A DNA stretch of 53,957 bases from Minisyncoccia bacterium (GCA_965659025.1 CBFHTW010000002.1:1-53957), one strand, 5' to 3'. Positions 1,571 through 47,912 are shown, counted from the first letter of the stretch. Notes: generated from the letters alone by a model not told the origin. Numbers and translations: made by a program.

Positions 1571-2407
1571 TTATTTCCGGAGGTTTTCATCTAACGTGTT
1601 TCCAGCGTCATCCTTCCATGCAGTCCATCCGTTGATTGGTCTGCCTGTTGTGGTTGCTGCTGCAGCCGAAGGACTTTTAAAAAGCACATTCTTTGTATAA
1701 ACGTAGGAAGCACCATCTCCATTATCAGTAAAAGTACCGTCCTCCAAAAATCGCTTGCGTGCGGCTTGTGACCAACCAAAAAATGATTCTGTTTCTCTGA
1801 TTCTTGCAAGCGAACCCTTAAGAACATTTAGGCTTCCGTCTGCAAGCAACTGAGCCTTTGCGTCCGCACCTTCTGCTTTCAAGTGATACAACTTTGCATC
1901 CGAAATTGATTCGGCTACCGTTTCAAAAACTTCATAACCAATAGCACCTAAAACAAATTGTACGTTTTCAAAATATTGTTCGACGATAACTTTCTCGCTC
2001 TCCGAGAGTGTATTTTCCTGCGGTTGAACTTTATTCTGCACAACCATACGATCAGCATCGTGTGCCATAGTAGTCGCTCTGTATTCCAAATACTTAACAA
2101 AAGCTCGGTTGAGTCCTCCCGTAAAAATTACCGCGATATTCCAAAAATCCTTGTTTGAATCGTGATTAGCAATTCGACTATAAAAATTTTCTGATTCACC
2201 GATATAAACTAGCTCATCCGAAGATCCCTCATCAACACCAAATAAAAGGTAGAGACCTGGCTGGTTTATCTCTGAACGATCTTTTAATTCCCTTAGATTT
2301 TGTCGAGGAACGATAAAACACTTACCAGACCACCCAGGTAGTTCAATGATTTTCATTCCGTTGGGATTTCCCTCCGGAACTAACATTTGTATGACCTTTG
2401 ACTTCAT
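1571..2407 (-). CDS. GIY-YIG nuclease family protein with DUF4357-like C-terminal domain
   Basis: Carries the GLYLLFG...LVYIGESENFYSRIANH core (GIY...YIG...R...N pattern). The C-terminal part (FKSPSAAAATTTGRPINGWTAWKD) resembles the DUF4357 extension. Confidence 0.65.
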   Translation of the reverse strand: MKSKVIQMLVPEGNPNGMKIIELPGWSGKCFIVPRQNLRELKDRSEINQPGLYLLFGVDEGSSDELVYIGESENFYSRIANHDSNKDFWNIAVIFTGGLNRAFVKYLEYRATTMAHDADRMVVQNKVQPQENTLSESEKVIVEQYFENVQFVLGAIGYEVFETVAESISDAKLYHLKAEGADAKAQLLADGSLNVLKGSLARIRETESFFGWSQAARKRFLEDGTFTDNGDGASYVYTKNVLFKSPSAAAATTTGRPINGWTAWKDDAGNTLDENLRK

Positions 2408-2465
2408 AAAGTGATTGTACAGCTTCTCGATGCTCCTCGGAATACAGTTCTATACGAAGAAACAG

Positions 2466-3023
2466 TTACATTCCTAAAATACTACTTTTGTTGGAAATAT
2501 TAGTTTTTGAACTATTGATTGATCTGAACTCAATATGTTTATTTATACCAGGAACTTTTAAAATTTCTTCTTCAGTTGTAGAAGATTCAAAATTTTTTAT
2601 GGCCAGTTCACATCTCTGTAAAAAAGAAACCAACTCGATCTCTTCAACTTTATCTTCTGCATTTATAATAAACGGTTGACCCTTACCATCTCCTCTTGAT
2701 ATTCTTCTGCCTTCAATTAGTACACCATTGTGTAAAAAAGCATTTCTATATGCTTCGTATAAGTCTTTCGATGCTTTAGTGCTTATGGATATATCGCCAA
2801 ATATTTTACTAGCCAAAATTGTAAAATGCTCAGGTGAATTCGATTTGACAATATCAATTATATCAATAATACATAATAGTAACGTCGCTGTCGGGAACCC
2901 TAATACATCTTGTTTTGTATAACCTTCCCCAACTTCAGGAGAGGATTTTATACAAATCCTTGCAGCCGTCAAATACTCATTCAAAACATTAATGACTGTT
3001 TGTTTATAATTTTTTGTCAACAT
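2466..3023 (-). CDS. hypothetical protein with a possible HEPN-like R-x4-H motif
   Basis: 185-aa AT-rich ORF that fills the gap between its neighbours. I recognise no family. It contains YRNAFLHN (R-x4-H). Confidence 0.45.
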   Translation of the reverse strand: MLTKNYKQTVINVLNEYLTAARICIKSSPEVGEGYTKQDVLGFPTATLLLCIIDIIDIVKSNSPEHFTILASKIFGDISISTKASKDLYEAYRNAFLHNGVLIEGRRISRGDGKGQPFIINAEDKVEEIELVSFLQRCELAIKNFESSTTEEEILKVPGINKHIEFRSINSSKTNISNKSSILGM

Positions 3024-9746: not shown

Positions 9747-10214
9747 TCATACTTTTGATTTGTTGCGATATTTCCTCCTAAGTACTTTTCCTTCTTGTGC
9801 TCGCTTACTGAGTGCGCGGTGCGGCCTCCCATTACCGCGATTTAATCCCGCAAATGTTGGACTTAGTGCATCACAATTGGGACAGAGTAGGCGAAGGTTG
9901 CTTTCAATATTGTTTCGCCAATTACCATCAATATGGTCGGCCACTAATGGAACCTCCCCGGTTCTTGTATTTATCTTTGACCAGCCGCATATACAACACT
10001 TATTCCCAAATTTTTTACGCAAATATATTTTTATGGAGGTGGAGACCACGCCAATACTTTGTAAGCCAAGGATCTCCCCGTCCTGCCATTTCTTTATGTA
10101 CATTTGTCGCTGGTATTCAAGTTGGCATACGTTGCTACAATACTTGTAGTAGGAGCGATCTGGCTCCTTTCCACAACGTAAACATGGTGTGCGAGGTTTC
10201 TTCAGATGAACCAT
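9747..10214 (-). CDS. HNH endonuclease
   Basis: CxxC...CxxC zinc knuckles and ADHIDGNWRNNIESNLRLLCPNCDA (the H-N-H core). It is AT-richer than the flanking DNA. Confidence 0.8.
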   Translation of the reverse strand: MVHLKKPRTPCLRCGKEPDRSYYKYCSNVCQLEYQRQMYIKKWQDGEILGLQSIGVVSTSIKIYLRKKFGNKCCICGWSKINTRTGEVPLVADHIDGNWRNNIESNLRLLCPNCDALSPTFAGLNRGNGRPHRALSKRAQEGKVLRRKYRNKSKV

Positions 10215-10292
10215 GCAGGCATCATACCATGGTATCTATATAAAAATGGTCTGCAGTTGATTGAGACACGCACACATCGGAGCTCTTTGAAA

Positions 10293-10336
10293 CTTGAGTC
10301 TCTATTAAAACACGCTCGAACCTATGTTAGCCAGCA
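10293..10336 (+). repeat. inverted repeat A (left end of element; attL-like arm)
   Basis: cttgagtctctattaaaacacgctcgaacctatgttagccagca matches the reverse complement of 17153-17196 at 43/44 positions. Weaker similarity (ttgacttc...gcacg) continues inward for ~25 nt. Confidence 0.9.
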
Positions 10337-11192
10337 TTCTGATTGACTTCGCACGCTCCGCGTGCGTGGTGGCTTGCAACTTTTTCGTACGCCCCGCTCG
10401 CGCGGTGACTCTCCGGCGCGCGGAGTACCGCGTCGCCGGTCGCCGCCCCCACCGATGGATGGCCGGGCCACCCGTTCTTTGCCCATTCGTTTTCCCCCGC
10501 CGATTTTTCATGCATGAGGAAAAGAACGGGTGTCCGGCCTCCTGTTTTTCGTGGGGGGCGGCGCAAACCCCGAACGGCTCACTTCTTCCCATTTGAGCCG
10601 TTGGCTTTAAAGAAGTGAGCCGTTCGATGCGGAATCCTGAGCCGTTGCGAATGGCTCAGGATAGCAAGTTGATGAGCCGTTGAACGGCTCAAGAAAATGC
10701 AGAACTCAAATCCAAGTGGTGCCTTCGTTCATGCTATTTGGTGGCGTCCAGCCCATGGGGTCCATCCTCGGCATCCGCCTCGGACATTTCCGCTAGGGCT
10801 ACTCGGGCCTAGATGTCTAGGTAGCGTGCTTTTCCTCGCCAGTGCCGCCTGCGGGCGGCTGGCTCGGGCACGCAACTGTTTGGGGGGAGGAAGGAATCCT
10901 CCCCCCAGCTCCTCCTCGCCTCGCGCGTCCGCTTCGCGGCGCGCCCGGCAGAGCCGGGCAGGGCTCGGCCAACCGTCGTCGCCAACCCCCATCCTCGTTT
11001 TCAAAAGTGTGTTCGTGGCAAGATTCTTGAGTCCGTTTTGCAAACTAACGGCGGCGCTCATCCAAGGGCGTGGACGCCCTAGCGGAAATGTCCGAGGCGC
11101 GAAGCCGATGCGCTTGCCCCACACCACCCATGCGCGCGCAAACCCGCCGTCTCCAGCTTGCTTCGCGCCGGAGACGGCGGGGCTCCCCGTGG
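10337..11192. other. GC-rich, helix-dense noncoding region (candidate large structured RNA and/or origin-like region)
   Basis: ORFs here are only Arg/Pro/Gly-rich frames typical of noncoding GC-rich DNA. It holds many long perfect stems, including a 22-bp long-range pair (10778-10799 with 11076-11097), 12+6 bp (10461-10480 with 10521-10539) and 17 bp (10571-10587 with 10610-10626). Confidence 0.5.
10571..10691. repeat. iteron-like array of TGAGCCGTT
   Basis: Direct copies lie at 10594, 10616, 10638 and 10673 (spacings 22, 22 and 35 bp). Inverted copies AACGGCTCA lie at 10573 and 10683, with an imperfect one at 10650. Confidence 0.8.
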
Positions 11193-11663
11193 TCAGTACT
11201 TAAAATCCCCCGTACCTTTTCCTTTCTCCTCGTCGTTATACTCGCTCCGAAACTTCTTCCACGATTTCTCCAGCCGGAACATCTTCACGCGAGAGTCGGT
11301 ATATCTTCCGATGATGTCGTCTACAAGCCCCTGGTCGAATTTTGAGCCGTACAGGCCTTTCACATGTTCGAGGTAGACGACCATCTTGTTCGCACCAGCC
11401 ATCGCTTTTTCCAAATATCCGACGCCGAGCGCGAAGTCCGCGAATCGTAGCGAATGAGCTTCGGCGACCAGAAGCGGCACGGACATCGCACAATCCACCA
11501 GCCGCTCGGCATACGCATATTTCTGCCGCACGAGATTCGGCATCAAATCTTTCGATATCAACACGGCGCACTCAATAGTTTTTTGGTAGATTTCGAGATC
11601 GCGAAACGTGCGGACAGGTTTTTTTGGCTTAAACGAATATTGCTTCTTGTCGTAGTACGCCAT
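11193..11663 (-). CDS. four-helix-bundle protein (23S rRNA IVS protein / Avd-like family)
   Basis: The N-terminal FRDLEIYQKTIECAVLISKDL and predicted all-helical composition match the four-helix-bundle (PF05635-like) family. Confidence 0.7.
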   Translation of the reverse strand: MAYYDKKQYSFKPKKPVRTFRDLEIYQKTIECAVLISKDLMPNLVRQKYAYAERLVDCAMSVPLLVAEAHSLRFADFALGVGYLEKAMAGANKMVVYLEHVKGLYGSKFDQGLVDDIIGRYTDSRVKMFRLEKSWKKFRSEYNDEEKGKGTGDFKY

Positions 11664-11672
11664 ACAGGATAG

Positions 11673-13034
11673 TCAGACTATCGTAACTTTTTCCGCGCCC
11701 TCGCGCGGCACCACTGCCTTCGTGCCATCTTTAAAGTGCACGATGCGCTTGCGCTTCGTTTTGCCGGCTTTGTTTTTGCTCTGGAGTTTCTTAACGACAT
11801 GCAGCGGGAAGAACTGGTAGTAATCTTTCTCGTCGAACCATGCGCAGGTGAATTCAAAGAGGCGCAATCCAGTGAGGCGCGAGAGCGCGAGCGCGTACCA
11901 GGTCAGCTGCTCGATCGGCCGCTCTTTTGCGGCCTTCGGCTTGTAATCGAGGATGTGCACTTGGCCGTTCCGTATTTGCACGATGTCGATGTGGCCGGTT
12001 AAAAGCCGCGGCAATGACTCTTCTTGCTTGCCGCCCTTGAATTTTACGAGCCCGTTGTCCGTCACCTTGAAATTCAACACGTTCTCCATATGCGCTACAT
12101 CCTCGCGACGGATAAACACCGGCACCTCCGTCGCGACGGTCACGCTGTCGTTCGCGAGGAAAAAACGCTGCACCGCCTCGTGCCGCTCCTTGTTTTCCGG
12201 TACCGCCTGCAAGACAAACGCCGCGAGGCGGTTGGCGTAGTTCGTCTTCGATTTCACTATCATGTCGGCCGTGTCGAATTTCGACCGCACGTCGCTCATG
12301 CGCTCGCCGTCGGCGAAATACTGATGCGGCGTCTCGCTCGATACCGCGTCGAGATATTCCTTCACGCGCTTCAGATTACGGTTCTTGAATTCCTCCAGCA
12401 TGAGCCGCGTCTTTGCGCGGTGATAGCGAAAACGATAGAGCTGCCGGTGCGCCATAGTAACGACCTCCACCATATCCTTCGGGCGATACATTTTCGTCGC
12501 GTACGGCCGCAACCGCTCAAAGCGGCACAGCTGCTTGTGCTCCTCGATCCACGCGGACAAAGTTTCTGGTTCCGGCGCGACACCGAATTTCTTTTTCAAG
12601 ATCGCGCACGTTTCTTCCAGAGTGAGACCGAGATTGTAGTAGCTCATGCCTTCGATCACAATGCGGAGCGGAAACTGCTTGCCTTTCAGATCCTGTGCCG
12701 TGAACGTGCGGCCGCAATCGGGAAGATTTTTGCACAGGTACAGCTGTACTTGTTGGTGTTTGTTCTTCCGCACGCCGCGCTTTACGAATTTTGTCGAGTC
12801 GCAGTACGGGCAGCGTTCGGCTCCGCGTTGGCGGAAGTTATTTTCCGATTGGTCGACAGATTCTGGTCCTGGTTTTTCTTCGGGATTCGGGGATTCAGCG
12901 TAAACCGACTTTACAGCGTCGGCACTGGAGCGACTAGCCATATCACGGCCTTCCGAGGTAAAAATCTCACGAGTTTCCCGCTTTTTCGAGTTTACCCCCG
13001 CTATTCGTGATATGAACGCGAGCAGTTTTTTCAT
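11673..13034 (-). CDS. zinc-ribbon + HTH + C-terminal PD-(D/E)xK (RecB/Cas4-like) nuclease domain protein
   Basis: CPYCDSTKFVKRG...LYLCKNLPDCGRTF is an IS1-type Zn ribbon. GHIDIVQIRNGQVHILDYKPK has the D...D/E-x-K pattern, followed by QLTWYALAL (the Q-x3-Y of RecB-family nucleases). Confidence 0.6.
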   Translation of the reverse strand: MKKLLAFISRIAGVNSKKRETREIFTSEGRDMASRSSADAVKSVYAESPNPEEKPGPESVDQSENNFRQRGAERCPYCDSTKFVKRGVRKNKHQQVQLYLCKNLPDCGRTFTAQDLKGKQFPLRIVIEGMSYYNLGLTLEETCAILKKKFGVAPEPETLSAWIEEHKQLCRFERLRPYATKMYRPKDMVEVVTMAHRQLYRFRYHRAKTRLMLEEFKNRNLKRVKEYLDAVSSETPHQYFADGERMSDVRSKFDTADMIVKSKTNYANRLAAFVLQAVPENKERHEAVQRFFLANDSVTVATEVPVFIRREDVAHMENVLNFKVTDNGLVKFKGGKQEESLPRLLTGHIDIVQIRNGQVHILDYKPKAAKERPIEQLTWYALALSRLTGLRLFEFTCAWFDEKDYYQFFPLHVVKKLQSKNKAGKTKRKRIVHFKDGTKAVVPREGAEKVTIV

Positions 13035-13039
13035 GGTTT

Positions 13040-16000
13040 TTACTCCGTCGCAGGAGTTTCGGCGGACGCGGTGTTTTCGGCTGGAGGAGACTCCGGCGCA
13101 GCGTCTTGGGTCGGAATTTCTGCTTCCTCAGGCTCGGATGTTGGCGCGACCAATTCGGTTTCGGCTTCTGGTTCGGTGGGTGCGACAACTTCGGCAGGGG
13201 TCTCTTCAACACTCTCATTCTCGCCAGATTCCGCGAGCTGCTCCTCTTGCGCAGGCACAGGGCTTGGAGCCGGAGGAGGAGGCGGCGTCGAGGAAGGGCT
13301 TGCGGCGGCAGCGCCACCGAGCTGTGATTTGAGGGCAGAGACCTCGGCTTCAAGTTGTTCGATGCGTTCGTCGTGCCCCTGTAAACGCTCGAAAATAAGG
13401 GCTATTTTCTCGCCATATTCCTGCATCTTCACCCACATCTCCTGCATCGCAGAGATGATGAGTGGAATGAATTTATCGTAATCAAGCTGGAAGTACTGCA
13501 CCTCTTCGTCGCCCACGGTCTCAAGGGAAAGCGCTTCGGGAAGGATGGGCATCACTTCCTGCGCGATGAGACCGATGGAGCGCGTGGAAGAGGCGTAGCG
13601 GCCAAGCGTGGGCCAGTGCGAGAGCACTTCCGGATCGGACGCCCGCCAGTCGAAGGCGACGGGATTCAGAGCAAGCACGGCGGCAAGCGAGCTACTTGCC
13701 GACAGTGACGTGATATTGGTCTTGAGGCGTTCATCCGATTCGTTTGCGATGCACGAGGAGGCGGTGTCGTCGCTGTTGGTGTCGACGCAGACGCTTCCAC
13801 CCTTCACTTCCACTTTTCCTTCGTTGGGATTCGTCGTCCCGATGCCGACGTTGCCGCCGCTGAGAATTGTCATTCTTTCCGTGCTATTTGTTCCAAAATG
13901 AAGACCAGTGTTTTCATAATTCCAGACCCAAGCATCTTCAGTAGCCCCCAAAAGAATTTGGAACCCGTCACCGGAAGTAACGCCCGTATCTGCATTAGTT
14001 AGTTGTAGTCGAGCACCCTCATTGGAGCTAGTTTCATGGACGTGCAGTTTCCAAGCCGGGTTCGTCGTACCTATGCCGACGTTGCCGCCACCCCCTTGTA
14101 AAACTAAATTACGCCATCCGCTGGTTGCCTGAAGTGCCTGCAACCAACTATAATCACCATCGTGTACTCCAAACTCCAACTTATTATCTGAATAAATTCC
14201 AGTGCCCGTTGTGATTGCAAAAATACCCTCTGCTCCAGATCCAGTAGGAACAACACTGCTCGTGCCAGTAACCGATAACTTTTGCAATGGACTCGTCGTC
14301 CCGATGCCGACGTTGCCTAAGCTGTCGATGCGCATGCGTTCTGTTATTGTTCCAGCCGCATTACTGGTCCACAGTGCGAACGCGCCACCACTTCCGCTCC
14401 CATCTGCTTGACCTTTGATGATCCCGAAACGTGTCGTGGTAGCCGATGTGTAAAAATTGATGTTGGTAGACCCGACACCGACGAGTCCCAACGTTTGTTG
14501 GTCGTTACTGCTGACAAGTGCGGCGTTCGTTTGCCCCAGCCCATATCCGTATGTCCCCACAGAAAGGAGCGATTGCGGCGTCGTCGTCCCGATGCCGACG
14601 TTGCCACTACCTTTATTCACGACCAGCTGCCCGCTGTTCACATTCAAACCGTAATCGCTTGCAGAGTTGTAGAATTGGCTGAAATCTGAAAAACCATACG
14701 ATGTCCCCTTATAAAATCGAAGTGCACTATATGAACCTACTGCGTCTGAACTGTCAGAAATATGCATCTTCGCCAATGGCCCTGTCGTCCCGATGCCGAC
14801 GTTGCCGCTCGTCGCGATGTACAAGGAAGACGTGGCAGAAAGCGTGTCGGTGCCTGAGAAATACGGGAATTGTCCTGTCGTTCCGGTGATGGGGGCGAGG
14901 TAGTCGGTGCCGGCGACGGCTGCGGTGAGCGCGCTTGAGCCGTTGCCTTTCAGAAGACCGGTGAGCGTTGAGAATATCGGAGCGGCGGAGAACGTTTGCG
15001 CCTGGCTCCAGGTGTTCGCCGTGGTCGTGCCGAACGCGAGCGAGAGCGTGCGGTCGGCGGAGAGGTCGCCGCCGCCTTGGAGCGGATACGTGGTCGAGAT
15101 AAGCCGTGTGCTGTTCGCGGGCGTAAAACCGAGTGCCGCTTGCTTGCTGTTGAAAGTCGTCCAGTCGGCCGACGAGAGGAAGCCACTCGTGCTGCCGGAC
15201 GACTGGGCAACTTGAATCGTCGCGCCTCCGCCGAGAAGCGCATCCGTGCCGCCGGTTATGGTGAGGATGGACGAGCCTGTCTCGGTGAGAGAGCCGCGCG
15301 TGGTGGTGGAAACCGCGCCAGAGCCGTTGCCGAGCAGCACCGTGCCGCTCGCGAGATTGGCCCAGCCGGTGCCGCCGTTGCCCACGGGGAGTATGCCGGT
15401 GACGTTGGACGCGAGGTCCACAAGTGCAGTGGAGAGTACACCTGCCGTCGCTTTGAGGAACCCCGTGAGCGCGGTCGAGACGGTCGAGAGGCCTCCGAGC
15501 GTCGTGATATTCGGGAGCGAAGTCGTCGCCGAAAGCCGATTGTCGAAACGGATATTGGTCCAGTAGAGATTCGTGCTTCCTTCGTCGAGTGCGTCGGTGG
15601 TCGTCGCGTACCAATTCGTGAGAGTGAGACGTGCGTCGAGCGCCGCTTGCAAGTCGGCCTGATCGGAGAGCGTGCCGGTGATAGAGCCCCACGCGGAAGC
15701 GCCCCCTCCCCCGCCGATGCAGACGCCGTTCACCGCGAAGCAGCCGCTCGCAAGATTGAAGCCATTGGCAGCGGTCGAGGTCGCGCTGCCGGTGAGATTG
15801 AATCCTGTGGCCTGCACTCCTCCAACAAATGTGGAGGTGGAGGTGTTGGTGGAGACAAGATTGGTGACGGTGGTCGTGCCCGCCGAAAGCGTTCCGGCGC
15901 CCACGATGTTGCCCGCGCCGTCTATCGTAGTCGTCGCCGTGCCGCCGAAGTACGCGGTGCCGAAGTTGGAGAAACGAGTCGAAGATGCGCCGGCGGAAAA

Positions 16001-16879
16001 GAGTTGGAGCGCAGTCCACGTATTCGCGTCGGAGAGCGATGCGCCGCTGCCGCCCGTGATGCCGAGCGAACTGGTCGCGGTGAGCGCGTAGCCGCCTGCG
16101 CCGTCGCCGACGAGCACCTGACCGTATGCGGGCGCCGAAGTGGTGCCGGTACCCCCTTGACTGACTCCGATGGTACCGGAGAATGCCGTCGCCATGACGG
16201 AGCCGCCGGTGATGGTGGGGTTGGTAATCGTGACGTTGGAGAGATTGTCGATGCGTTGCGATTGCGCGACGGCGTTGTATACGGCGGAGGTCTGCGCACT
16301 CTGCGCCGACCCTTGCGAGAAGATAAGCGAGCGGAGTTTGTTTTCAAGACCATTCAATCGGTCGGCGAGAGCGTTTTCCGAAATACCGCCCTGCGTGACG
16401 ACGCGCTCTGTTTCCACGACACGTTCAATAACGGGCTGTTGTATTGTCTGATATACGATTGCCTGTCCCGTTTGAGGTCGTGATGGACTCTCTAATGGGG
16501 TGGTCGTCGCAATAGCGGCGAGAGGCTGGGGCGCAAGGACAGCGGGTACTTCTACGAAGCCATCTCCCGCGGCCACAGGGTACGCGTCCGTGCTATTGCC
16601 AAAAAGACGTCCGAAGAAATCGCGGAGCGTCTCCGCTGCATTCGAGAACGCGCCGCTCGCCGAAGCGACGAGTGCGGGCCGCGAGTCACTCACTGACGCC
16701 GGAGCTGCGGCGAACCCAATGGCGGTCGCGGTGAGAGGGATGGCGATAATCATCGCTGCTACCCAGGAAAGTACCCCCCTTTCACGATTCTTTTTGTGCA
16801 CCTCTGACGCGTGCCAATCTTCCGTCGCGCGGATGGCGTCACGTACCGAAAAAAGCTTACGCTCGTCGCGCGAATTCAT
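13040..16879 (-). CDS. giant membrane-anchored tail-fibre-like surface protein with C-terminal intramolecular-chaperone (peptidase S74-like) domain and Pro/Glu/Thr-rich tail
   Basis: The start is trimmed to MNSRDERK (ATG at 16879), followed by a TM helix. It has five GNVGIGTT modules. SDERLKTNI...LNPVAFDWR...GLIAQEV...LDYDKFIPL is the endosialidase-chaperone/tail-fibre signature. A coiled coil and a low-complexity PAPS/EE tail follow. Confidence 0.75.
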   Translation of the reverse strand: MNSRDERKLFSVRDAIRATEDWHASEVHKKNRERGVLSWVAAMIIAIPLTATAIGFAAAPASVSDSRPALVASASGAFSNAAETLRDFFGRLFGNSTDAYPVAAGDGFVEVPAVLAPQPLAAIATTTPLESPSRPQTGQAIVYQTIQQPVIERVVETERVVTQGGISENALADRLNGLENKLRSLIFSQGSAQSAQTSAVYNAVAQSQRIDNLSNVTITNPTITGGSVMATAFSGTIGVSQGGTGTTSAPAYGQVLVGDGAGGYALTATSSLGITGGSGASLSDANTWTALQLFSAGASSTRFSNFGTAYFGGTATTTIDGAGNIVGAGTLSAGTTTVTNLVSTNTSTSTFVGGVQATGFNLTGSATSTAANGFNLASGCFAVNGVCIGGGGGASAWGSITGTLSDQADLQAALDARLTLTNWYATTTDALDEGSTNLYWTNIRFDNRLSATTSLPNITTLGGLSTVSTALTGFLKATAGVLSTALVDLASNVTGILPVGNGGTGWANLASGTVLLGNGSGAVSTTTRGSLTETGSSILTITGGTDALLGGGATIQVAQSSGSTSGFLSSADWTTFNSKQAALGFTPANSTRLISTTYPLQGGGDLSADRTLSLAFGTTTANTWSQAQTFSAAPIFSTLTGLLKGNGSSALTAAVAGTDYLAPITGTTGQFPYFSGTDTLSATSSLYIATSGNVGIGTTGPLAKMHISDSSDAVGSYSALRFYKGTSYGFSDFSQFYNSASDYGLNVNSGQLVVNKGSGNVGIGTTTPQSLLSVGTYGYGLGQTNAALVSSNDQQTLGLVGVGSTNINFYTSATTTRFGIIKGQADGSGSGGAFALWTSNAAGTITERMRIDSLGNVGIGTTSPLQKLSVTGTSSVVPTGSGAEGIFAITTGTGIYSDNKLEFGVHDGDYSWLQALQATSGWRNLVLQGGGGNVGIGTTNPAWKLHVHETSSNEGARLQLTNADTGVTSGDGFQILLGATEDAWVWNYENTGLHFGTNSTERMTILSGGNVGIGTTNPNEGKVEVKGGSVCVDTNSDDTASSCIANESDERLKTNITSLSASSSLAAVLALNPVAFDWRASDPEVLSHWPTLGRYASSTRSIGLIAQEVMPILPEALSLETVGDEEVQYFQLDYDKFIPLIISAMQEMWVKMQEYGEKIALIFERLQGHDERIEQLEAEVSALKSQLGGAAAASPSSTPPPPPAPSPVPAQEEQLAESGENESVEETPAEVVAPTEPEAETELVAPTSEPEEAEIPTQDAAPESPPAENTASAETPATE

Positions 16880-17152
16880 TGCATATATTGTATCAGTTTT
16901 CCGTGGTCGGGAAACGCAATCTCCCAGTATTAGATGTGAACAAATTGTGGGCCAATTTAAGGCATTTGCCCCCGCCCCGCCGCCCATTCCGCACATTGCA
17001 TTCCCCCGCGAGATTGAAAATGGTGGAGAGCGGCGGGGCGGGAAGAAATACCACGAGGTCGAATCGGACCACTCCAGTACAAAGCCACCACGCGCGCGGA
17101 GCGCGCGCCTGCCCGTCCGTAGCCTCGTGCGAAGGCGGGAAGTCAAGCGTCG

Positions 17153-17196
17153 TGCTGGCTAAAATAGGTTCGAGCGTGTTTTAATAGAGACTCAAG
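17153..17196 (-). repeat. inverted repeat A' (internal copy)
   Basis: The reverse complement matches 10293-10336 at 43/44 positions. Confidence 0.9.
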
Positions 17197-17344
17197 AATC
17201 AAACTCAAAGGGGTTTCGGAAGGCGCAAAACGCGCGGCGCGAAGCGCCGCGTAGGGGGGAATGGGATTTCCGCGCGCTTCGCGCGTCGAAGAGGTTCAAA
17301 AAATACAAATCCGAAAACTTTTTGGAGGGGGTTTTTGGAGGGGA
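17197..17344 (-). repeat. inverted repeat B' (internal copy, contiguous with A')
   Basis: The reverse complement aligns with 19565-19717 over ~150 nt, with a few indels. Shared blocks include cccctccaaaaagttttcgg, cgcgcgaagcgcgcggaaatcccattcccccctacgcggcgc and tttgattcttgag. Confidence 0.85.
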
Positions 17345-17442
17345 AATGCAAATACACAGTGGAGTGCTTGGCCCACCCTCCCGTCCGCGCACGAATACCA
17401 TTCGCTGAAAACAGTGTAATCAGCGAATCTCCCTTAAACGCA

Positions 17443-17461
17443 GAAAAGCCCCGCAGGGCTC
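17443..17461 (-). terminator. Rho-independent terminator-like hairpin downstream of the DUF3800 gene
   Basis: On the minus strand: AGCCC-TGCG-GGGCT followed by TTTTCT. Confidence 0.45.
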
Positions 17462-17563
17462 TTCTTGACTGCCTGTGTTTCGGCGACGGAACACGTCGCT
17501 TACGTGCGATACGCTCCGCACAGGACTGACATCACAGTTATTATAGCCGAAATGGGGCTGAAA

Positions 17564-18208
17564 TCAAGATGAAGATGGGGTGCTGTGGATACTCGGATTT
17601 TGCCCGAATTTGCTTTGGGGAAAGCGGATAGATTCGCTGATCGTGAGCATATTGTAAAAATGGCTCGCCCCGTAGTTGTAGTGTGCCCAAATTGCGTTCG
17701 CAATCACATCGGCCGCTTGTACGATCTTCGAATGCTCGGAATTGGTGTACGAAAGCTGGAGATTGTGCTGGTATCCGAACTGGGTATAGGCCTTTATCTT
17801 GATGTAATCGGCAAGCGAGTTGATGGAGCCCACTTTTGTCGAGTGATTGTCGAGCAGAATGCACAAATCCGTTGGCGTGCTTTTGATTGTTTTCTTTACC
17901 AGGAATGAGAAAAGGTAGTTGTAGCAGAGATTTTTATCCTCAAAGAGTTTTTTGTTGTCGATGTTGTGCTTGTCCGAGACGATGTACGAGACAGTGTAGT
18001 CGTTCGCACTGCATAGTTTGTTGAAAATCTCTTGCTTTTGCGGGAAAGACAATCGACTCGCTTTCACTTCTTTGAGATTATGACGGGCGCAAAACTTCCG
18101 CATGAGATTCACGATGCGCTTGCTCTGGTGCGGTGCGAGCAGTACAAGAACGAAGTAACGGTCCTTCGCCCCTAGATTGCCAGACTCGTCAACAAACAGG
18201 GTCTTCAT
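17564..18208 (-). CDS. DUF3800 domain protein
   Basis: MKTLFVDESGNLG N-terminus (the DESG hallmark). The start is trimmed to the ATG at 18208. It is AT-richer than its surroundings. Confidence 0.7.
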   Translation of the reverse strand: MKTLFVDESGNLGAKDRYFVLVLLAPHQSKRIVNLMRKFCARHNLKEVKASRLSFPQKQEIFNKLCSANDYTVSYIVSDKHNIDNKKLFEDKNLCYNYLFSFLVKKTIKSTPTDLCILLDNHSTKVGSINSLADYIKIKAYTQFGYQHNLQLSYTNSEHSKIVQAADVIANAIWAHYNYGASHFYNMLTISESIRFPQSKFGQNPSIHSTPSSS

Positions 18209-18229
18209 ACAAGATATATAATACCGTGT
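18209..18229. promoter_or_regulatory. 21-bp divergent intergenic region with TATATATAAT box
   Basis: acaagatatataataccgtgt. TATAAT (18217-18222) lies 7 nt before the recombinase ATG, which suggests leaderless transcripts. Confidence 0.35.
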
Positions 18230-19777
18230 ATGCGTTACTTCCTCTACGCCCGCAAAAGTACCGATGTTGAGGATAAACAAGTCCTTTCCATCGAAGCGCA
18301 ACTCGCAGAGTTGCGCGCGATCGCGCGAAAAGATGAGCTAGAGATTGTAGAAGAATTGGTCGAAAAGAAATCCGCAAAGATTCCAGGTCGCGCGATATTC
18401 AGCGACATGATGTCGCGTATTGGCCGCGGCGAGGCGCAAGGAATTATTTGCTGGAAGATAGATCGCCTCGCGCGAAATCCCGTAGACGGCGGACAAGTGC
18501 AGTGGTTGCTGCAACAGGGTGTAATCAAACACATTCAAACGCATGACCGCTCGCACTATCCGAATGACAATGTATTGATGATGTCCGTCGAGCTTGGCAT
18601 GGCGAATGAGTATATTCGCCAGTTGAGCGCAAACACGGCTCGCGGTCTGCGGCAGAAAGCGCGACAAGGAATATATCCCGGCCTCGCCCCTATCGGCTAC
18701 TTGAATGACCCGCGCACCAAAACTATCCGCGTCCACAAAAAGAACGCCGCGCTTGTGCGCGAGATGTTTGAACGCTACGCGAATGGTGCAACGTTAAATG
18801 ACTTGGCGGTATTTCTTGAGAACGCTAGCGTGCTGTCCAAAGGAAATCGCCGCGTTCACATATCGCGTATCTCATTTATTTTGCAAAATCCGTTTTATTA
18901 CGGCCACTTCCGCTACGCGGGCGAGGTTTATAAAGGTAATCACTCGCCGCTCATTTCAAAATCACTTTTTGACAAAGCAAACGCGGTGCTTCGCAGACGC
19001 GGCCGGACGCTCGCGGTCACAACCGATCCCGCGCCGCTGTGCGGCCTTTTGCGCTGCGGCTTCTGCGGCATGGGCATCACGGTCGAAGTGAAAGAGAAGC
19101 ACCAGAAAAACGGCAATATTCACCACTACACCTACTATCGCTGTACTCGCAAAAACAAGGCCGTGAAATGCAAAGAAGCGCCGATGCGAAGCGAAGTTTT
19201 AAACTCCCAACTTTCGGCGCTTCTTGGCGAGTACGCCATGCCGCAAGAATGGATATCGCCTTTATCGGCGATGCTTGATATGGAAGCAGCTAGCGCCTCC
19301 AAAACGGCGGCGGAGGCCGTTCGAGGACTGCGGGACAAAGTTTTTGATATTTCCAACAAACTTGAACGTCTTACGGATTTATATGTGGCCGAGGATATTG
19401 AACGTGAGGATTATTTGTCCCGCCGCCGCGCTCTCATTGGAGAGCGCCGGACGATTGAAGAACAAATCGTCCATCTTGAACGATCCCCCGCCGCGTGGGT
19501 TGAACCTGTCAGAAACTGGATACAAGACGCTTCGCGTCTTGATGAAATATCCAAATCAGAAGACATCCCCTCCAAAAAATCCCCCCTCCAAAAAGTTTTC
19601 GGATTGAACCTCAGAATCCACGCGCGCGAAGCGCGCGGAAATCCCATTCCCCCCTACGCGGCGCTCCGCGCCGCGCGCATTTCGGCCTCTGAAAAACCGT
19701 TAAATTTGATTCTTGAGCCGATGGCCGGAATTGAACCGGCGACCTACTCCTTACCATGGAGTTGCTCTACCATCTGA
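18230..19777 (+). CDS. large serine recombinase (resolvase domain + recombinase domain + zinc ribbon + coiled coil)
   Basis: YARKSTDVEDKQVLSIEAQ holds the catalytic Ser region, then DRLARN. CGLLRCGFCG...YYRCTRK is the zinc ribbon. The C-terminal ~70 codons run through repeat B and antisense to tRNA-Thr. Confidence 0.85.
   Translation: MRYFLYARKSTDVEDKQVLSIEAQLAELRAIARKDELEIVEELVEKKSAKIPGRAIFSDMMSRIGRGEAQGIICWKIDRLARNPVDGGQVQWLLQQGVIKHIQTHDRSHYPNDNVLMMSVELGMANEYIRQLSANTARGLRQKARQGIYPGLAPIGYLNDPRTKTIRVHKKNAALVREMFERYANGATLNDLAVFLENASVLSKGNRRVHISRISFILQNPFYYGHFRYAGEVYKGNHSPLISKSLFDKANAVLRRRGRTLAVTTDPAPLCGLLRCGFCGMGITVEVKEKHQKNGNIHHYTYYRCTRKNKAVKCKEAPMRSEVLNSQLSALLGEYAMPQEWISPLSAMLDMEAASASKTAAEAVRGLRDKVFDISNKLERLTDLYVAEDIEREDYLSRRRALIGERRTIEEQIVHLERSPAAWVEPVRNWIQDASRLDEISKSEDIPSKKSPLQKVFGLNLRIHAREARGNPIPPYAALRAARISASEKPLNLILEPMAGIEPATYSLPWSCSTI
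19565..19717 (+). repeat. repeat B (right end of element; attR-like arm abutting tRNA-Thr)
   Basis: Inverted copy of 17197-17344. It ends in gattCTTGAG, immediately followed by the tRNA acceptor stem. Confidence 0.85.
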
Positions 19778-19788
19778 GCTACATCGGC
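19716..19788 (-). tRNA. tRNA-Thr (anticodon GGT), CCA not encoded
   Basis: GCCGATG/CATCGGC acceptor, ACTCC-ATGGTAA-GGAGT anticodon arm, GCCGG-TTCAATT-CCGGC T-arm and discriminator T. The 3' trailer is CAAG. Confidence 0.9.
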
Positions 19789-46865: not shown

Positions 46866-46938
46866 GCACCCATAGCTCAGCGGTAGTAGCAGCCGTCTTA
46901 TACACGGCCGGTCGCAGGTTCGATCCCTGCTGGGTGCA
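46866..46938 (+). tRNA. tRNA-Ile (anticodon TAT)
   Basis: GCACCCA/TGGGTGC acceptor, GCCGT-CTTATAC-ACGGC anticodon arm (U34 A35 U36) and GCAGG-TTCGATC-CCTGC T-arm. Confidence 0.8.
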
Positions 46939-46994
46939 CACTTTAGTGAGACCTACAGTGGTGCTCATAGTTAGTGTATGATTAAATCACTACC

Positions 46995-47759
46995 ATGAAG
47001 AACACATTCTGGATCGTGTCAAATTATGTTGGTTATCTTTTCGGAAGAAAGTTCTTTGCTCCTATTCACCACGCAATGATAAATCTGTCCTTGCACGGCC
47101 TTGGATACGACAATATGTATTACGATGCCTGGACTGGTGAAGAATGGTTTATCAAAAACATTCTTGTCCAAAATAATCCTCGTGTATGTTTGGATATTGG
47201 TGCAAATGTAGGAAAATTTTCAGAACTGCTGTTGAAGTATACCCAGGCTAAAATTTATGCGGCAGAGCCGTCGCCATCTTCTTATAAAGAGCTAAAGAGG
47301 TTGGACAGTAGGGTGATTCCTATACAAACCGCTATCGCAGATTTTGATGGCAATGCATTTTTGCACTCAAAGACGCCGACAGATACACGTGCATCGTTGG
47401 ATAAAAATGTGAGGGGGGGGGTAGAAACAGAGGTCCCGGTCTCAACTATCCAGAGTCTAGGGGTACTGTACAATATTGAAGAAATCGATTTTATAAAAAT
47501 AGATACGGAAGGATACGAAAGAGAAGTTTTGAAGGGTCTTGGATCTTATAGGCCGAAGTTTATACAGTTTGAATTTGCTCTCCATCACCTGTATAGGAAT
47601 TGCACAATTTATGAACTCACACAATTATTACCCGAGTACGAATTCTACAGATTGTTGCCTCATGGCTGGTTGAAGATTAACCCTAAAAAATATTTGGATA
47701 ATATTTTTATGCTGTGCAATATTGTGGCTGTTAAGAAAGATAGCGACCGAGATGCCTAA
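46995..47759 (+). CDS. FkbM-family methyltransferase
   Basis: CLDIGANVGKFS...FIKIDTEGYEREVLKG. It is clearly AT-richer than the flanking DNA. Confidence 0.8.
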   Translation: MKNTFWIVSNYVGYLFGRKFFAPIHHAMINLSLHGLGYDNMYYDAWTGEEWFIKNILVQNNPRVCLDIGANVGKFSELLLKYTQAKIYAAEPSPSSYKELKRLDSRVIPIQTAIADFDGNAFLHSKTPTDTRASLDKNVRGGVETEVPVSTIQSLGVLYNIEEIDFIKIDTEGYEREVLKGLGSYRPKFIQFEFALHHLYRNCTIYELTQLLPEYEFYRLLPHGWLKINPKKYLDNIFMLCNIVAVKKDSDRDA

Positions 47760-47810
47760 CTCTATCAAACCGAAATCGTCTAAACGGTCCTTACGGGGTC
47801 TTTTTGGCCC

Positions 47811-47834
47811 AGGTTCGATCCCTGCTGGGTGCAC
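47811..47834 (+). repeat. 24-bp duplicate of the tRNA-Ile(TAT) 3' end
   Basis: aggttcgatccctgctgggtgcac is identical to 46916-46939. Confidence 0.9.
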
Positions 47835-47912
47835 TGCTTCACTCCTCTAGATGAGGACGTTTGGATATTAAAGAAAACCGCGGCACTTTCGTGCCGCGGG
47901 TCGCAGAGTGAA

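What the first reader, a model, noticed from the sequence alone, without database searches (positions are those of the whole stretch)
10283..19723. Junction logic indicates a ~9.4-kb element integrated at the 3' end of tRNA-Thr(GGT) by a large serine recombinase
The left junction reads ctttgaaaCTTGAG|tctctattaaaacacgctcgaacc (host X, then arm A). The right junction reads aaatttgattCTTGAG|ccgatggccgg (arm B, then the acceptor stem of tRNA-Thr(GGT), T). An internal site at 17153-17344 reads, on the minus strand, gagtttgattCTTGAG|tctctattaaaacacgctcgaacc, which is B joined directly to A. X|A plus B|T is exactly the product expected from attB(X|T) x attP(B|A), with the crossover inside the shared CTTGAG. 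The recombinase gene lies next to the B|T junction, as integrases usually do. Removing 10299-19717 would give an uninterrupted minus-strand run of cupin, tRNA-Thr(GGT), HNH, tRNA-Thr(CGT) and prfB. The cargo has no capsid, portal or terminase genes. It holds a giant tail-fibre-like protein, a Zn-ribbon/PD-(D/E)xK nuclease, an Avd-like protein, a DUF3800 protein and ~850 nt of structured noncoding DNA with iteron-like repeats. I cannot assign this composition to a described element family.
Basis: partly seen in the sequence, partly recalled or inferred. Interest (0 to 1): 0.85.

Follow-up and report, generated by a model that had tools for sequence, protein, structure and literature searches.

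The report
Serine-integrase island with spare inverted attP
A 9.4-kb genomic island sits at the end of a threonine tRNA gene, put there by a large serine recombinase, and it belongs to a widespread, apparently undescribed family in Patescibacteria whose members keep a second, inverted copy of their attachment site and a conserved structured RNA-like element.

Summary
All three junctions are real. X|A is at 10293-10299, B|tRNA-Thr(GGT) at 19712-19717, and B|A at 17191-17196. A simple integrated element should not keep an intact attP.

I examined 79 related Patescibacteria loci. The same layout recurs in them: attL (X|A), cargo, inverted attP (A'|B'), LSR, attR (B|tRNA). The LSR reading frame always runs through the B arm into the antisense tRNA. 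The core changes with the tRNA targeted. Targets are Thr, Asn, Gln, Ala, Leu, Arg, Gly, Phe, Trp, Ile and Glu. The A arm carries GCT[AC]GAACC, a mimic of the tRNA T-loop, placed 4 nt further out than in the tRNA. That offset is the expected attP/attB difference for serine integrases.

Insertion sites differ between species, and cargo varies (tail-fibre-like protein here, copper resistance elsewhere). In near-identical relatives the cargo module is found inverted. About 6% of LSRs abut the A arm instead of a tRNA.

A conserved, covarying ~340-nt structured element (10766-11104) replaces the supposed 168-aa ORF.

I found no empty site or circle for this strain. Verdict: real LSR island, new architectural variant.

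The parts
10283..10298 (+). attL host-side half (X) ending in the core CTTGAG (10293-10298). Its last 13-16 nt are similar to B-arm ends.
   Evidence: (I2 extends to 10286). L097 shows a tRNA-Thr(GGT) with the trailer ..ATTTGATTCTTGAG and no LSR within 8.6 kb.
10299..10375 (+). A arm at attL, the P'-type half-site. GCTCGAACC lies at +16..+24 from the junction, followed by TTGACT and a GC hairpin.
   Evidence: Conserved family-wide.
10565..10695 (+).
   Evidence: (I12): conserved in the window, L002 and L005.
10766..11104 (+). Conserved ~340-nt structured RNA-like element closed by a 24-bp perfect stem (10776-10799 with 11076-11099). It overlaps the spurious 168-aa ORF 10697-11203.
   Evidence: Fold z-scores are -7.1 and -8.3. 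nhmmer finds it once in the window and in 17 loci, and also in L087/L090/L096. Covariation: 96.4% of cells paired, 11 pairs changed on both sides, 0 of 500 shuffles reached the score. No Rfam match.
11108..11185 (+). Leader-type motif GCTTGCCCCAC..CCCATGCGCGCGC plus a hairpin. A paralogous copy lies at 17358-17430.
11193..11663 (-). Cargo: 156-aa protein with a weak match to the four-helix-bundle family (23S rRNA IVP / Avd-like).
   Evidence: E=0.0033, below the cut-off. No NCBIfam or PHROG hit.
11673..13034 (-). Cargo: 453-aa protein with an N-terminal IS1/IS1595-type zinc domain and a PD-(D/E)XK nuclease domain.
   Evidence: (weak Cas4-like match).
13040..16882 (-). Cargo: giant tail-fibre-like surface protein with a C-terminal Peptidase_S74 chaperone domain. 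The likely start is MNSRDE.. at about 16882, followed by a TM helix.
   Evidence: (phrog_9942, 7e-23).
17082..17190 (-). A' arm of the internal site (M), an inverted copy of the attL A arm.
17191..17344 (-). Core (CTCAAG, 17191-17196) and B' arm of the internal inverted attP. This is a non-coding copy of the B arm with an extra ~10 nt.
17564..18301 (-). DUF3800 protein inside the recombinase module. The mechanical ORF is given; the true start is probably downstream of 18301.
   Evidence: (5.4e-13).
18230..19777 (+). Large serine recombinase, 515 aa, catalytic Ser10. Its last ~65 codons are encoded by the B arm, the core and the antisense tRNA.
19566..19717 (+). B arm and core (CTTGAG, 19712-19717) of attR. 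It is the P-type half-site, it encodes the LSR C-terminal tail, and it contains a covarying GC hairpin.
19715..19788 (-). tRNA-Thr(GGT). Its acceptor and T-arm form the B'-type half-site of attR, and the gene is left intact.

Best explanation
Window 10299-19717 is a non-viral genomic island integrated at the 3' end of tRNA-Thr(GGT) by its own large serine recombinase (LSR). It belongs to a large Patescibacteria-specific family.

**Build.** The family is made of two modules whose ends are inverted repeats:
- a cargo module bounded by inverted A arms;
- a recombinase module bounded by inverted B arms.

The integrated chain therefore reads X|A=cargo=A'|B'=LSR=B|tRNA. The outer junctions are attL and attR. 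The middle junction is an intact attP (B|A) in inverted orientation.

**Integration (inferred mechanism).** The LSR recombines a B|A attP with an attB made of the tRNA acceptor/T-arm and its trailer. It crosses over in the last 2-3 nt before the A arm. Its zinc-ribbon domain reads the T-loop complement TCGAACC in the tRNA, and reads a mimic of it (GCT[AC]GAACC) set 4 bp further out in the A arm.

**Free form (inferred, not observed).** Any excised form would be a circle with two inverted attP sites. Either attP could be used for integration.

**Resident attP.** It is recombination-competent, at least on evolutionary time scales:
- cargo modules are found inverted between near-identical elements;
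- about 6% of family members have the LSR 3' arm joined to A and the other arm joined to a tRNA.

**Cargo and the structured element.** Cargo is freely exchangeable. A conserved ~340-nt structured RNA-like element lies just inside the attL-side A arm. It is the only conserved part besides the LSR and the arms, and its role is unknown.
For: - **LSR identity.** Resolvase, Recombinase and Zn_ribbon_recom domains. phrog_95 integrase at 1.6e-74. Best PDB relatives are SPbeta SprA and the A118 integrase. Catalytic-domain invariants are present.
- **Family-wide architecture.** The B inverted repeat and the M site occur in most of the 79 loci. The second (A) inverted-repeat pair abuts M in at least 12 loci with enough flank. 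The proximal 40 nt of the A arm are conserved across the family. The core co-varies with the target tRNA.
- **Targets.** 51 of 79 loci have a tRNA 3' end under the end of the LSR ORF: 33 Thr plus about 6 intron-containing Thr, and 10 other tRNA identities.
- **Mobility.**
  - The element sits at tRNA-Thr(CGT), with the GGT site empty, in L012, L013, L035, L040 and L041. The window has the reverse.
  - Some genomes carry several copies.
  - Two elements lie in tandem in L002.
  - Cargo varies; L080 carries copper resistance.
- **Half-site logic.** The motif lies at +16..+24 in the A arm and at +14..+20 in the tRNA. The 4-nt offset holds in 34 of 36 loci. The published model places the ZD motif at 16-24 in attP and 5 bp further in for attB (PMC3783163).
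- **Only L..R is an integration unit.** The cores are direct at L and R but inverted at M.
- **M is old and distinct.** R arms are in frame in 49 of 49 loci. M arms differ by indels that are not multiples of 3 in 38 of 49, with a recurrent ~10-nt insertion.
- **Rearrangement.**
  - L098 versus L100: the 2574-nt cargo module is inverted at 100.0% identity, both whole arms included. Flanks are 99.6% identical. Two further assemblies support each orientation.
  - L031 versus L034 also differ in cargo orientation.
  - 6 of about 102 informative LSR tails read into an A arm.
- **Not viral.** The LSR family is essentially absent from IMG/VR.
Against: - No empty site, circular junction or orientation heterogeneity was found for the window's own strain. 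The metagenome scan gave one unrelated hit, and the window's proteins are not on record.
- No excised circle was seen for any family member, and no RDF was identified.
- Orientation is strongly biased. The structured element lies next to attL in 16-17 loci and next to M in one. LSRs abut a tRNA in about 94% of informative cases. The two attPs are therefore not used equally, or flipping is rare.
- The window's arms are diverged (B 83%; A 94% over only 51 nt), so this copy may be old or immobile.
- The L098/L100 crossover interval includes about 85 nt of identical arm sequence. Short homologous recombination cannot be excluded.
- Inverted repeats can mislead assemblers. The L087/L090 case has chimeric arms and may be a MEGAHIT chimera.
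- No convincing ZD-type motif was found in the B arm or in X, the two left half-sites.
Confidence: 0.72

Rival explanations
1. A domesticated invertible locus. The LSR acts mainly as a DNA invertase, flipping the A-flanked and/or B-flanked segments. This switches which end of the cargo is connected to promoters in the recombinase module: either the operon with the tail-fibre-like surface protein or the structured RNA. Mobility would be secondary or lost.
For: - Each sub-segment is bounded by inverted repeats that include the core.
- Cargo is inverted between near-identical elements and between relatives.
- In the window, DUF3800, M, the giant gene, the nuclease and the Avd-like gene are all co-directional on the minus strand, so read-through across M is plausible.
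- The units next to both A arms face inward.
Against: - Orientation is about 16:1 across independent species rather than mixed.
- Insertion sites, target tRNAs and cargo differ between genomes, as expected for a mobile island.
- The enzyme is a phage-integrase-type LSR, not a small invertase.
- Inversion changes no junction sequence and no reading frame.
Confidence: 0.15
2. An ordinary single-attP integrated element. On this view the internal B|A is an accident: an assembly chimera of integrated and circular forms, or a one-off duplication.
For: Inverted repeats of 150 nt or more do break or confuse short-read assemblies, and many related contigs end at the arms.
Against: - The same inverted site is present in dozens of independent MAGs, including contigs of 100-800 kb.
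- M arms carry a conserved M-specific ~10-nt insertion and lose the reading frame.
- The M core tracks the target tRNA.
Confidence: 0.03
3. A degraded prophage or phage satellite that kept a tail-fibre gene and an integrase.
For: The giant protein matches phage tail-fibre PHROGs and Peptidase_S74. The integrase matches phrog_95. The DUF3800 protein matches a PHROG family of unknown function.
Against: - None of the annotated ORFs matched a capsid, portal, terminase or replication family.
- The LSR family is absent from 2.9 million viral contigs except for one hit at 33% identity, and the structured element is also absent there.
- Cargo in relatives is non-viral, for example copper resistance.
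Confidence: 0.05
4. Two independently integrated elements side by side: a cargo element with A ends and a minimal LSR element with B ends.
For: Each unit has terminal inverted repeats and a similar leader motif. Modules recombine in different chains, such as B=A=B in L098.
Against: Conservative site-specific integration leaves the crossover core as a direct repeat at both ends. Here the cores flanking each unit are inverted (CTTGAG..CTCAAG and CTCAAG..CTTGAG), and only L and R are direct.
Confidence: 0.03

Closest known systems
Serine-integrase (LSR) prophages and elements: A118/LI integrase, SPbeta SprA, phiC31, Bxb1
   Same: Same domain architecture (resolvase, recombinase, zinc ribbon). Same attP x attB -> attL + attR logic with a very short identity core. 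A ZD-type motif is displaced outward in the element half-site relative to the host half-site.
   Different: - The target is the extreme 3' end of tRNA genes.
- The arms conserved around the core are 110-380 nt rather than about 25 nt.
- The integrase ORF crosses the att site.
- An intact inverted attP stays inside the integrated element.
- There are no phage genes and no identified RDF.
SCCmec-type cassette chromosomes (CcrAB/CcrC)
   Same: Both are LSR-mobilised, non-conjugative, cargo-variable islands at the 3' end of a conserved gene. Both form composite or tandem arrays with internal attachment sites. CcrB and CcrA are the nearest named NCBIfam models, though far below their cut-offs.
   Different: Internal SCC sites are direct repeats that allow sub-element excision, whereas here the internal site is inverted. 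The target is rlmH, not a tRNA. The host range is staphylococci, not Patescibacteria.
tRNA-targeting genomic islands (Islander/TIGER type) and tycheposons
   Same: Integration at the 3' side of tRNA genes with the tRNA restored. Hot-spot tandem arrays. Niche-adaptive cargo in streamlined genomes (PMC4383910; bioRxiv 2020.12.28.424599).
   Different: Those islands use tyrosine integrases almost exclusively (910 of 937 tycheposons) and duplicate 17-45+ nt of the tRNA. Here a serine integrase crosses over at the discriminator/CCA end, and only about 6-13 nt are shared.
Serine DNA-invertase switches (Gin, Hin, Cin, Pin/PinQ)
   Same: Segments bounded by inverted recombination sites are found in both orientations. 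Tail-fibre-type cargo lies next to the recombinase.
   Different: Those are small (~190 aa) enhancer/Fis-dependent invertases acting on 26-bp sites, and inversion swaps coding 3' ends or a promoter. Here the enzyme is a 515-aa integrase-type LSR, the elements are mobile, and inversion changes no junction.
Yeast 2-micron plasmid (FLP/FRT inverted repeats)
   Same: The predicted free form would be a circle divided into two arcs by two inverted copies of the recombination site, with the recombinase encoded in one arc.
   Different: FLP is a tyrosine recombinase and the 2-micron circle is a proven replicon. No circle and no replication function has been shown here.

Membership tests
Large serine recombinase / serine integrase | N-terminal resolvase catalytic domain with a serine nucleophile | tested here: met
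   PF00239 at 2.5e-19 over residues 4-147. YARKS10TD is invariant across 23 homologs.
Large serine recombinase / serine integrase | Recombinase domain plus a zinc-ribbon domain C-terminal to the catalytic domain | tested here: met
   PF07508 at 6.7e-16 and PF13408 at 4.9e-08. The protein aligns to SPbeta SprA over residues 19-475.
Large serine recombinase / serine integrase | attP and attB half-sites share a ZD motif displaced by about 5 bp | tested here: met
   On the right half-sites, GCT[AC]GAACC lies at +16..+24 in A and TCGAACC at +14..+20 in the tRNA. The 4-nt offset holds in 34 of 36 loci. The left half-sites (B, X) were inconclusive.
Large serine recombinase / serine integrase | Crossover at a 2-bp central dinucleotide; excision depends on an RDF | not testable with these tools
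   The shared core narrows the crossover to the last 2-5 nt before A. No RDF candidate was identified in the window.
tDNA-integrated genomic island | Integrated within or at a tRNA gene, which is left intact, with the integrase gene next to the tRNA | tested here: met
   The same holds in 51 of 79 relatives.
tDNA-integrated genomic island | Presence/absence polymorphism at the same site | tested here: inconclusive
   Met between species: CGT versus GGT site occupancy differs. Not met for this strain: no X|T junction was found.
tDNA-integrated genomic island | Tyrosine integrase and a displaced tRNA 3' fragment of 17 nt or more as a direct repeat | tested here: not met
   The integrase is a serine recombinase. 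The direct repeat is CTTGAG, or up to 13 nt if TTTGAwwCTTGAG is counted.
Small serine invertase switch (Hin/Gin family) | A ~190-aa recombinase with a C-terminal HTH, acting on short inverted sites with an enhancer | tested here: not met
   The protein is 515 aa with integrase-type C-terminal domains. phrog_125 (DNA invertase) matches only the catalytic domain.
Diversity-generating retroelement (because of the 'Avd-like' gene) | Reverse transcriptase and a TR/VR repeat pair next to Avd | tested here: not met
   No RT domain in any major ORF. No TR/VR-type direct repeat. The Avd-like match is below the Pfam cut-off.
Prophage | Capsid, portal and terminase genes | tested here: not met
   The LSR family is absent from viral contigs.
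Known RNA family (Rfam 15) for the 10766-11104 element | A match to any covariance model | tested here: not met
   Nothing credible at E<=10 in the window or in L031.

The most novel reading that the evidence does not exclude
These elements could be a distinct class of serine-integrase mobile DNA. They are built from palindromic-ended modules, a cargo module with A ends and a recombinase module with B ends. The modules are joined by a resident, functional attP.

That design would let the LSR do three things without an RDF:
- invert modules;
- integrate through either of two attPs;
- link modules to second tRNA genes, giving chains such as tRNA|B=LSR=B|A=cargo=A'|B'=LSR=B|tRNA.

A dedicated ~340-nt structured RNA might take part in the element's life cycle, for example as an RNA-primed origin for a 2-micron-like flipping circle or as a regulator of recombination.

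This would be a major, previously unrecognised mobilome of the Candidate Phyla Radiation.
Probability: 0.3. Interest if true: 0.8.

Novelty: new variant of a known kind. Interest (0 to 1): 0.62.

Why it matters
- **A gap in CPR biology.** Patescibacteria (CPR) have tiny genomes and very few described mobile elements. It carries adaptive cargo, including surface proteins, nucleases and metal resistance. It may therefore be a principal route of gene flux in these organisms.
- **An unusual integrase solution.** The family shows a serine integrase that has solved tRNA targeting by reading the universal T-loop and mimicking it in its own attP. That explains how close relatives have moved among at least 11 tRNA identities.
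- **An unexplained design.** Keeping an intact, inverted attP inside the integrated element is not part of the textbook serine-integrase cycle. It raises testable questions about directionality control, module shuffling and genome inversions.
- **Possible tools.** Integrases that recognise a universally conserved tRNA motif could be useful for genome engineering.
- **An RNA with a defined context.** The associated structured RNA-like element is an uncharacterised candidate ncRNA with a clear genetic setting.

Tried and rejected
1. **Exact-protein look-ups.** Look-ups of the window's cupin and LSR returned nothing on record.
2. **tmRNA targets.** I first read the right flank of L001, L018, L019, L024, L032 and L069 as a tmRNA 3' end. 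Rfam found no tmRNA. The tmRNA claim is withdrawn.
3. **Covariance model.** I used an nhmmer profile plus RNAalifold and pair counts instead.
4. **Window-specific junction scan.** A scan of metagenome contigs for the empty-site or circle junction returned one hit in another organism.
5. **Viral contigs.** One distant LSR hit and no copy of the structured element.
6. **The P0109 set (L087-L096).** This looked like direct proof that M recombines with a second tRNA. The arms are chimeric, and a second element copy plus a repeat-induced MEGAHIT misjoin would give the same contig. I treat it as suggestive only.
7. **'unk168' as a conserved protein or RDF.** Its homologs are low-complexity, have no family, and are conserved in nucleotide-like blocks. 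It is reinterpreted as noncoding.
8. **Promoter and terminator scans.** Uninformative.
9. **A symmetric ZD motif in the B arm or in X.** Not convincing.
10. **Model of two independent integrants.** Rejected on core orientation.
11. **Literature.** Four full-text searches found no description of this family or architecture.

Full report
**1. The observation**

- Left: core CTTGAG at 10293-10298, then the A arm from 10299.
- Right: B arm, then core CTTGAG at 19712-19717.
- Internal, + strand: A'-CTCAAG-B' with the core at 17191-17196.

The right core overlaps the last acceptor base and the discriminator of tRNA-Thr(GGT). The tRNA lies at 19715-19788 on the minus strand.

BLAST self-comparison gives the repeats.
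- B arms: 17191-17344 versus 19566-19717, 157 nt at 83%.
- A arms: 10286-10336 versus 17153-17203 at 94%, plus 10350-10375 versus 17082-17107 at 92%.

The internal site is inverted relative to both ends. The cores bounding 10299-17190 are therefore inverted, and so are those bounding 17197-19711. Only the outer cores are direct repeats. A conservative attP x attB integration explains the outer pair. It does not explain why an intact B|A site remains inside.

**2. Genes**

| Coordinates | Strand | Finding |
|---|---|---|
| 18230-19777 | + | 515-aa large serine recombinase (Resolvase, Recombinase, Zn_ribbon_recom). phrog_95 integrase at 1.6e-74. Nearest solved relatives are SPbeta SprA and the A118 integrase. 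|
| 17564-18301 | - | DUF3800 protein |
| 13040-17146 | - | Tail-fibre-like protein with a Peptidase_S74 domain. The real start is probably near 16882. |
| 11673-13034 | - | Zinc-domain plus PD-(D/E)XK nuclease |
| 11193-11663 | - | 156-aa protein whose 'Avd-like' match is below the Pfam cut-off |

No virion, replication or reverse-transcriptase gene was found. The LSR ORF does not stop before the att site. It reads through the B arm and the core (..LNLILE) and ends inside the antisense tRNA.

**3. This is a family, not a one-off**

The LSR has thousands of homologs at 60-89% identity, all in Patescibacteria. Nearly all are about 516 aa. In an alignment of 23, the C-terminal tail reads ..KKSSLQKIFGLNL..HAREARG..PYAALRAAR..LSLILEP|xxGIEPxT..CSTN. 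That is B arm, then core, then the antisense T-arm of a tRNA.

A scan of one genome per species returned at least 572 confirmed matches, and I kept 79 loci. In those loci:
- the LSR 3' end overlaps the 3' end of a minus-strand tRNA in 51;
- 33 of those are Thr, and about 6 more are Thr genes with introns;
- the other targets are Asn, Gln, Ala, Leu, Arg, Gly, Phe, Trp, Ile and Glu;
- most loci have a 150-170-nt inverted copy of the B arm upstream of the LSR;
- in nearly every such locus that copy is joined through the same core to a conserved A arm, TCTCTATTAAAACACGCT[AC]GAACCTATTTTAGCAAAAAT;
- where enough flank is present (at least 12 loci), a second A arm in inverted orientation lies several kb further out.

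The last bases of the B arm are the complement of the target tRNA's discriminator/CCA end, and they change with the target. The outer junction shares only 2-5 nt with the core. Many contigs end inside an arm, as expected for repeats of this size.

**4. Evidence that the elements move**

- In the window the order is prfB, tRNA-Thr(CGT), HNH, [element], tRNA-Thr(GGT). The CGT site reads ..TCTGGAG|CCGACC and is empty.
- In L012, L013, L035, L040 and L041 the element sits at tRNA-Thr(CGT), and the neighbouring GGT gene has an uninterrupted 3' end.
- L002 carries two elements in tandem, one at each Thr gene.
- One 813-kb contig carries three copies at Thr-TGT, Thr-GGT and Phe.
- Cargo is unrelated between loci. 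A close relative in a syntenic host context carries a copper oxidase, a P-type ATPase and a CsoR-type repressor.
- The family is essentially absent from 2.9 million viral contigs.

**5. Half-site logic**

I measured motif positions from the junction in 36 loci.
- The A arm carries GCT[AC]GAACC at +16..+24. The GAACC start is at +20 in 28 loci and at +19 in 4.
- The tRNA side carries the T-loop complement TCGAACC at +14..+20.
- The offset is a constant 4 nt.

In the structural model of serine integrases the zinc-ribbon domain reads a motif at positions 16-24 of an attP half-site. It reads the same motif about 5 bp nearer the centre in attB (PMC3783163). So A behaves as a P-type half-site that mimics the T-arm, and the tRNA behaves as a B-type half-site. 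Reading a universal tRNA feature would explain how the family has spread over many tRNA identities.

I could not find an equally clear motif in the left half-sites. The B arm and X share only a TTTGAww block next to the core. An uninterrupted tRNA-Thr(GGT) in another organism has the same trailer and no LSR nearby. The B-like bases in the window's X may therefore be native attB sequence or the scar of an older element.

**6. What the internal site is**

It is not an artefact.
- It recurs in independent MAGs on contigs of up to 800 kb.
- The LSR-proximal (R) arm keeps the reading frame in 49 of 49 loci.
- The internal (M) arm differs by frame-breaking indels in 38 of 49, with a recurrent ~10-nt insertion at one position. 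The two copies have therefore been distinct for a long time.
- They still co-evolve within a locus, and they share the target-specific core.

It is not the boundary between two separately integrated elements, because the cores flanking each sub-unit are inverted.

The simplest reading is that the element consists of two palindromic-ended modules, A=cargo=A' and B'=LSR=B, joined by an attP. An excised form would then be a circle with two inverted attPs. Integration through either attP gives the same chain. This is inference: no circle was observed.

**7. Evidence that the internal attP and the arms take part in recombination**

- **LSR tails.** I classified the C-terminal tails of the top 120 LSR representatives. 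About 96 read into an antisense tRNA. Six read into an A arm (..LILE|SLLKHARTYF..). In those six, the LSR-proximal attP is intact.
- **A chain between two tRNAs.** For one of those six (P0043), four independent assemblies give the chain tRNA-Thr(CGT)|B1'-UvrD-LSR1-B1|A-[665-aa gene]-A'|B2'-LSR2-B2|tRNA-Thr(GGT). The non-coding arm of LSR1 is the one joined to a tRNA.
- **Cargo inversion.** In that set the 2574-nt cargo module, both whole A arms included, is inverted between L098 and L100 at 100.0% identity. The flanks are 99.6% identical in the same orientation. L099 agrees with L098, and L101 agrees with L100.
- **Where the crossover lies.** The two arms differ at 14 positions, all more than 85 nt from the core. 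The crossover therefore lies in the core or in the identical proximal ~85 nt. B1 and B2 are unrelated, which excludes exchange within the B arms.
- **More distant relatives.** L031 and L034 also differ in cargo orientation.
- **An ambiguous case.** L087 versus L090 has chimeric arms and could be an assembler misjoin. I do not rely on it.
- **Against a free-running switch.** Orientation is about 16:1 across species.

**8. The noncoding region**

The stretch from 10299 to about 11190 holds four features.
- The A arm.
- A cluster of TGAGCCGTT/AACGGCTCA hairpins (10565-10695).
- A ~340-nt element (10766-11104) closed by a perfect 24-bp stem.
- A leader-type motif plus hairpin (11108-11185). A paralogous copy lies just inside the M site at 17358-17430.

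The 168-aa ORF over the ~340-nt element has only low-complexity 'homologs' with no family.

The ~340-nt element folds far better than shuffled sequence, with z-scores of -7.1 and -8.3. An nhmmer profile finds it once in the window and in 17 of the first 79 loci. It also finds it in L087, L090 and L096. In the loci where its position was checked it lies just inside the attL-side A arm and faces inward. The exception is L034, whose cargo is flipped.

On a 13-sequence alignment:
- 96.4% of cells pair;
- 11 pairs change on both sides;
- 0 of 500 shuffles reach the covariation score;
- slid controls fall to about 50% paired.

G-U pairs favour the + strand. RNA versus single-stranded DNA is not settled. 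Rfam 15 has no match. A minimal 3.6-kb relative (L012) has only a short hairpin in its place, so the element is common but not obligatory.

The B arm itself contains a very conserved distal block of about 55 nt and a GC hairpin with four covarying pairs.

**9. Comparison and verdict**

The element works like a serine-integrase island and meets the defining features of an LSR. It is not a classical tRNA island, because those use a tyrosine integrase and a long tRNA duplication. It is also not a small-invertase switch, a DGR or a prophage.

The nearest functional analogues are SCC cassettes and tycheposons. SCC cassettes are LSR-driven composite islands with internal att sites, but those sites are direct. 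Tycheposons are tRNA hot-spot islands in streamlined genomes.

Four literature searches found no description of this family or of a resident inverted attP.

I rate it a new variant of a known kind. Current mobility of this particular copy is unproven: its arms are diverged, and I found no empty site or circular junction for it.

Noticed in passing
window 10766-11104 (+); also L002 12721-13068, L005 1698-2082, L031 1015-1366, L056 5459-5794, L087 5344-5674 and others: A conserved ~340-nt structured RNA-like element with strong covariation and no Rfam match. It lies just inside the attL-side A arm of these islands. The 168-aa ORF annotated over it is spurious.
   Followed up: yes
window 19566-19777: The integrase ORF crosses its own recombination site. 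Its last ~20 residues therefore depend on the recombination state: an antisense-tRNA tail (..EPMAGIEPATYSLPWSCSTI) or an A-arm tail (..SLLKHARTYF..). The frame through the B arm is kept in 49 of 49 loci.
   Followed up: partly
window 17308-17344 versus 19566-19605; L087 arms: The internal (M) copy of the B arm carries a recurrent insertion of about 10 nt, one helical turn, between TTCGG and TTGAACC. It is absent from the coding copy. The distal B arm also contains a TCGAACC-like motif and a tandem CCTCCAAAAAATC.
   Followed up: partly
L018 11487-11740, L001, L024, L069: In several relatives the targeted tRNA-Thr(GGT) carries a 178-223-nt intron after the anticodon. Standard ARAGORN and Rfam runs miss the gene.
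   Followed up: partly
window 17358-17430 and 11108-11185; L012 8236-8306 and 9885-9975: A paralogous leader motif (GTGCTTGCCCCACCC..CGTGCGCGCAC plus a hairpin plus GCTCCCC) occurs both after the B' arm and after the A arm or structured element. The LSR start codon follows a TATAAT-like box by 7-9 nt, which suggests a leaderless mRNA.
   Followed up: no
window 9747-10214 (-): An HNH endonuclease gene lies immediately next to tRNA-Thr(CGT). The same adjacency is conserved in L020 and L099, so it is host context rather than island cargo.
   Followed up: partly
window 13827-14833: Five copies of a ~56-nt unit (core GTCGTCCCGATGCCGACGTTGCC) lie inside the giant tail-fibre-like gene, with start-to-start spacings of 231, 231, 288 and 201 nt. 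This points to a repeated protein module.
   Followed up: no
window 2001-3000 and 47001-48000: Two 1-kb stretches have markedly lower GC (0.355 and 0.425) than the window background of about 0.53. The second lies next to tRNA-Ile(TAT) at 46866-46939, so these are possibly other foreign insertions.
   Followed up: no
L028 9594-9669: ARAGORN calls the tRNA targeted in this relative 'tRNA-Stop (tta)', a possible suppressor or misread anticodon.
   Followed up: no
L080 1-9983: A closely related island (LSR 82% identical, same host synteny) carries a copper-resistance cargo: multicopper oxidase, P-type ATPase, CsoR-type repressor and DsbA-like proteins. It is stable across 11 contigs from different samples.
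   Followed up: partly
L087 5836-6895 and L089 8925-9981: A more distant family member (P0109, 62% identity) seems to lack the internal attP. It instead has a 244-aa HTH_17/MerR (excisionase-type) gene and a 104-aa gene directly upstream of the LSR. This hints that a resident attP and an Xis/RDF-like gene may be alternatives.
   Followed up: no
L097 1598-1685: An uninterrupted tRNA-Thr(GGT) in another metagenome organism has the trailer CTCAAGAATCAAAT, identical to the proximal 14 nt of the window's B arm, and no LSR within 8.6 kb. It is either native attB sequence or a scar.
   Followed up: partly
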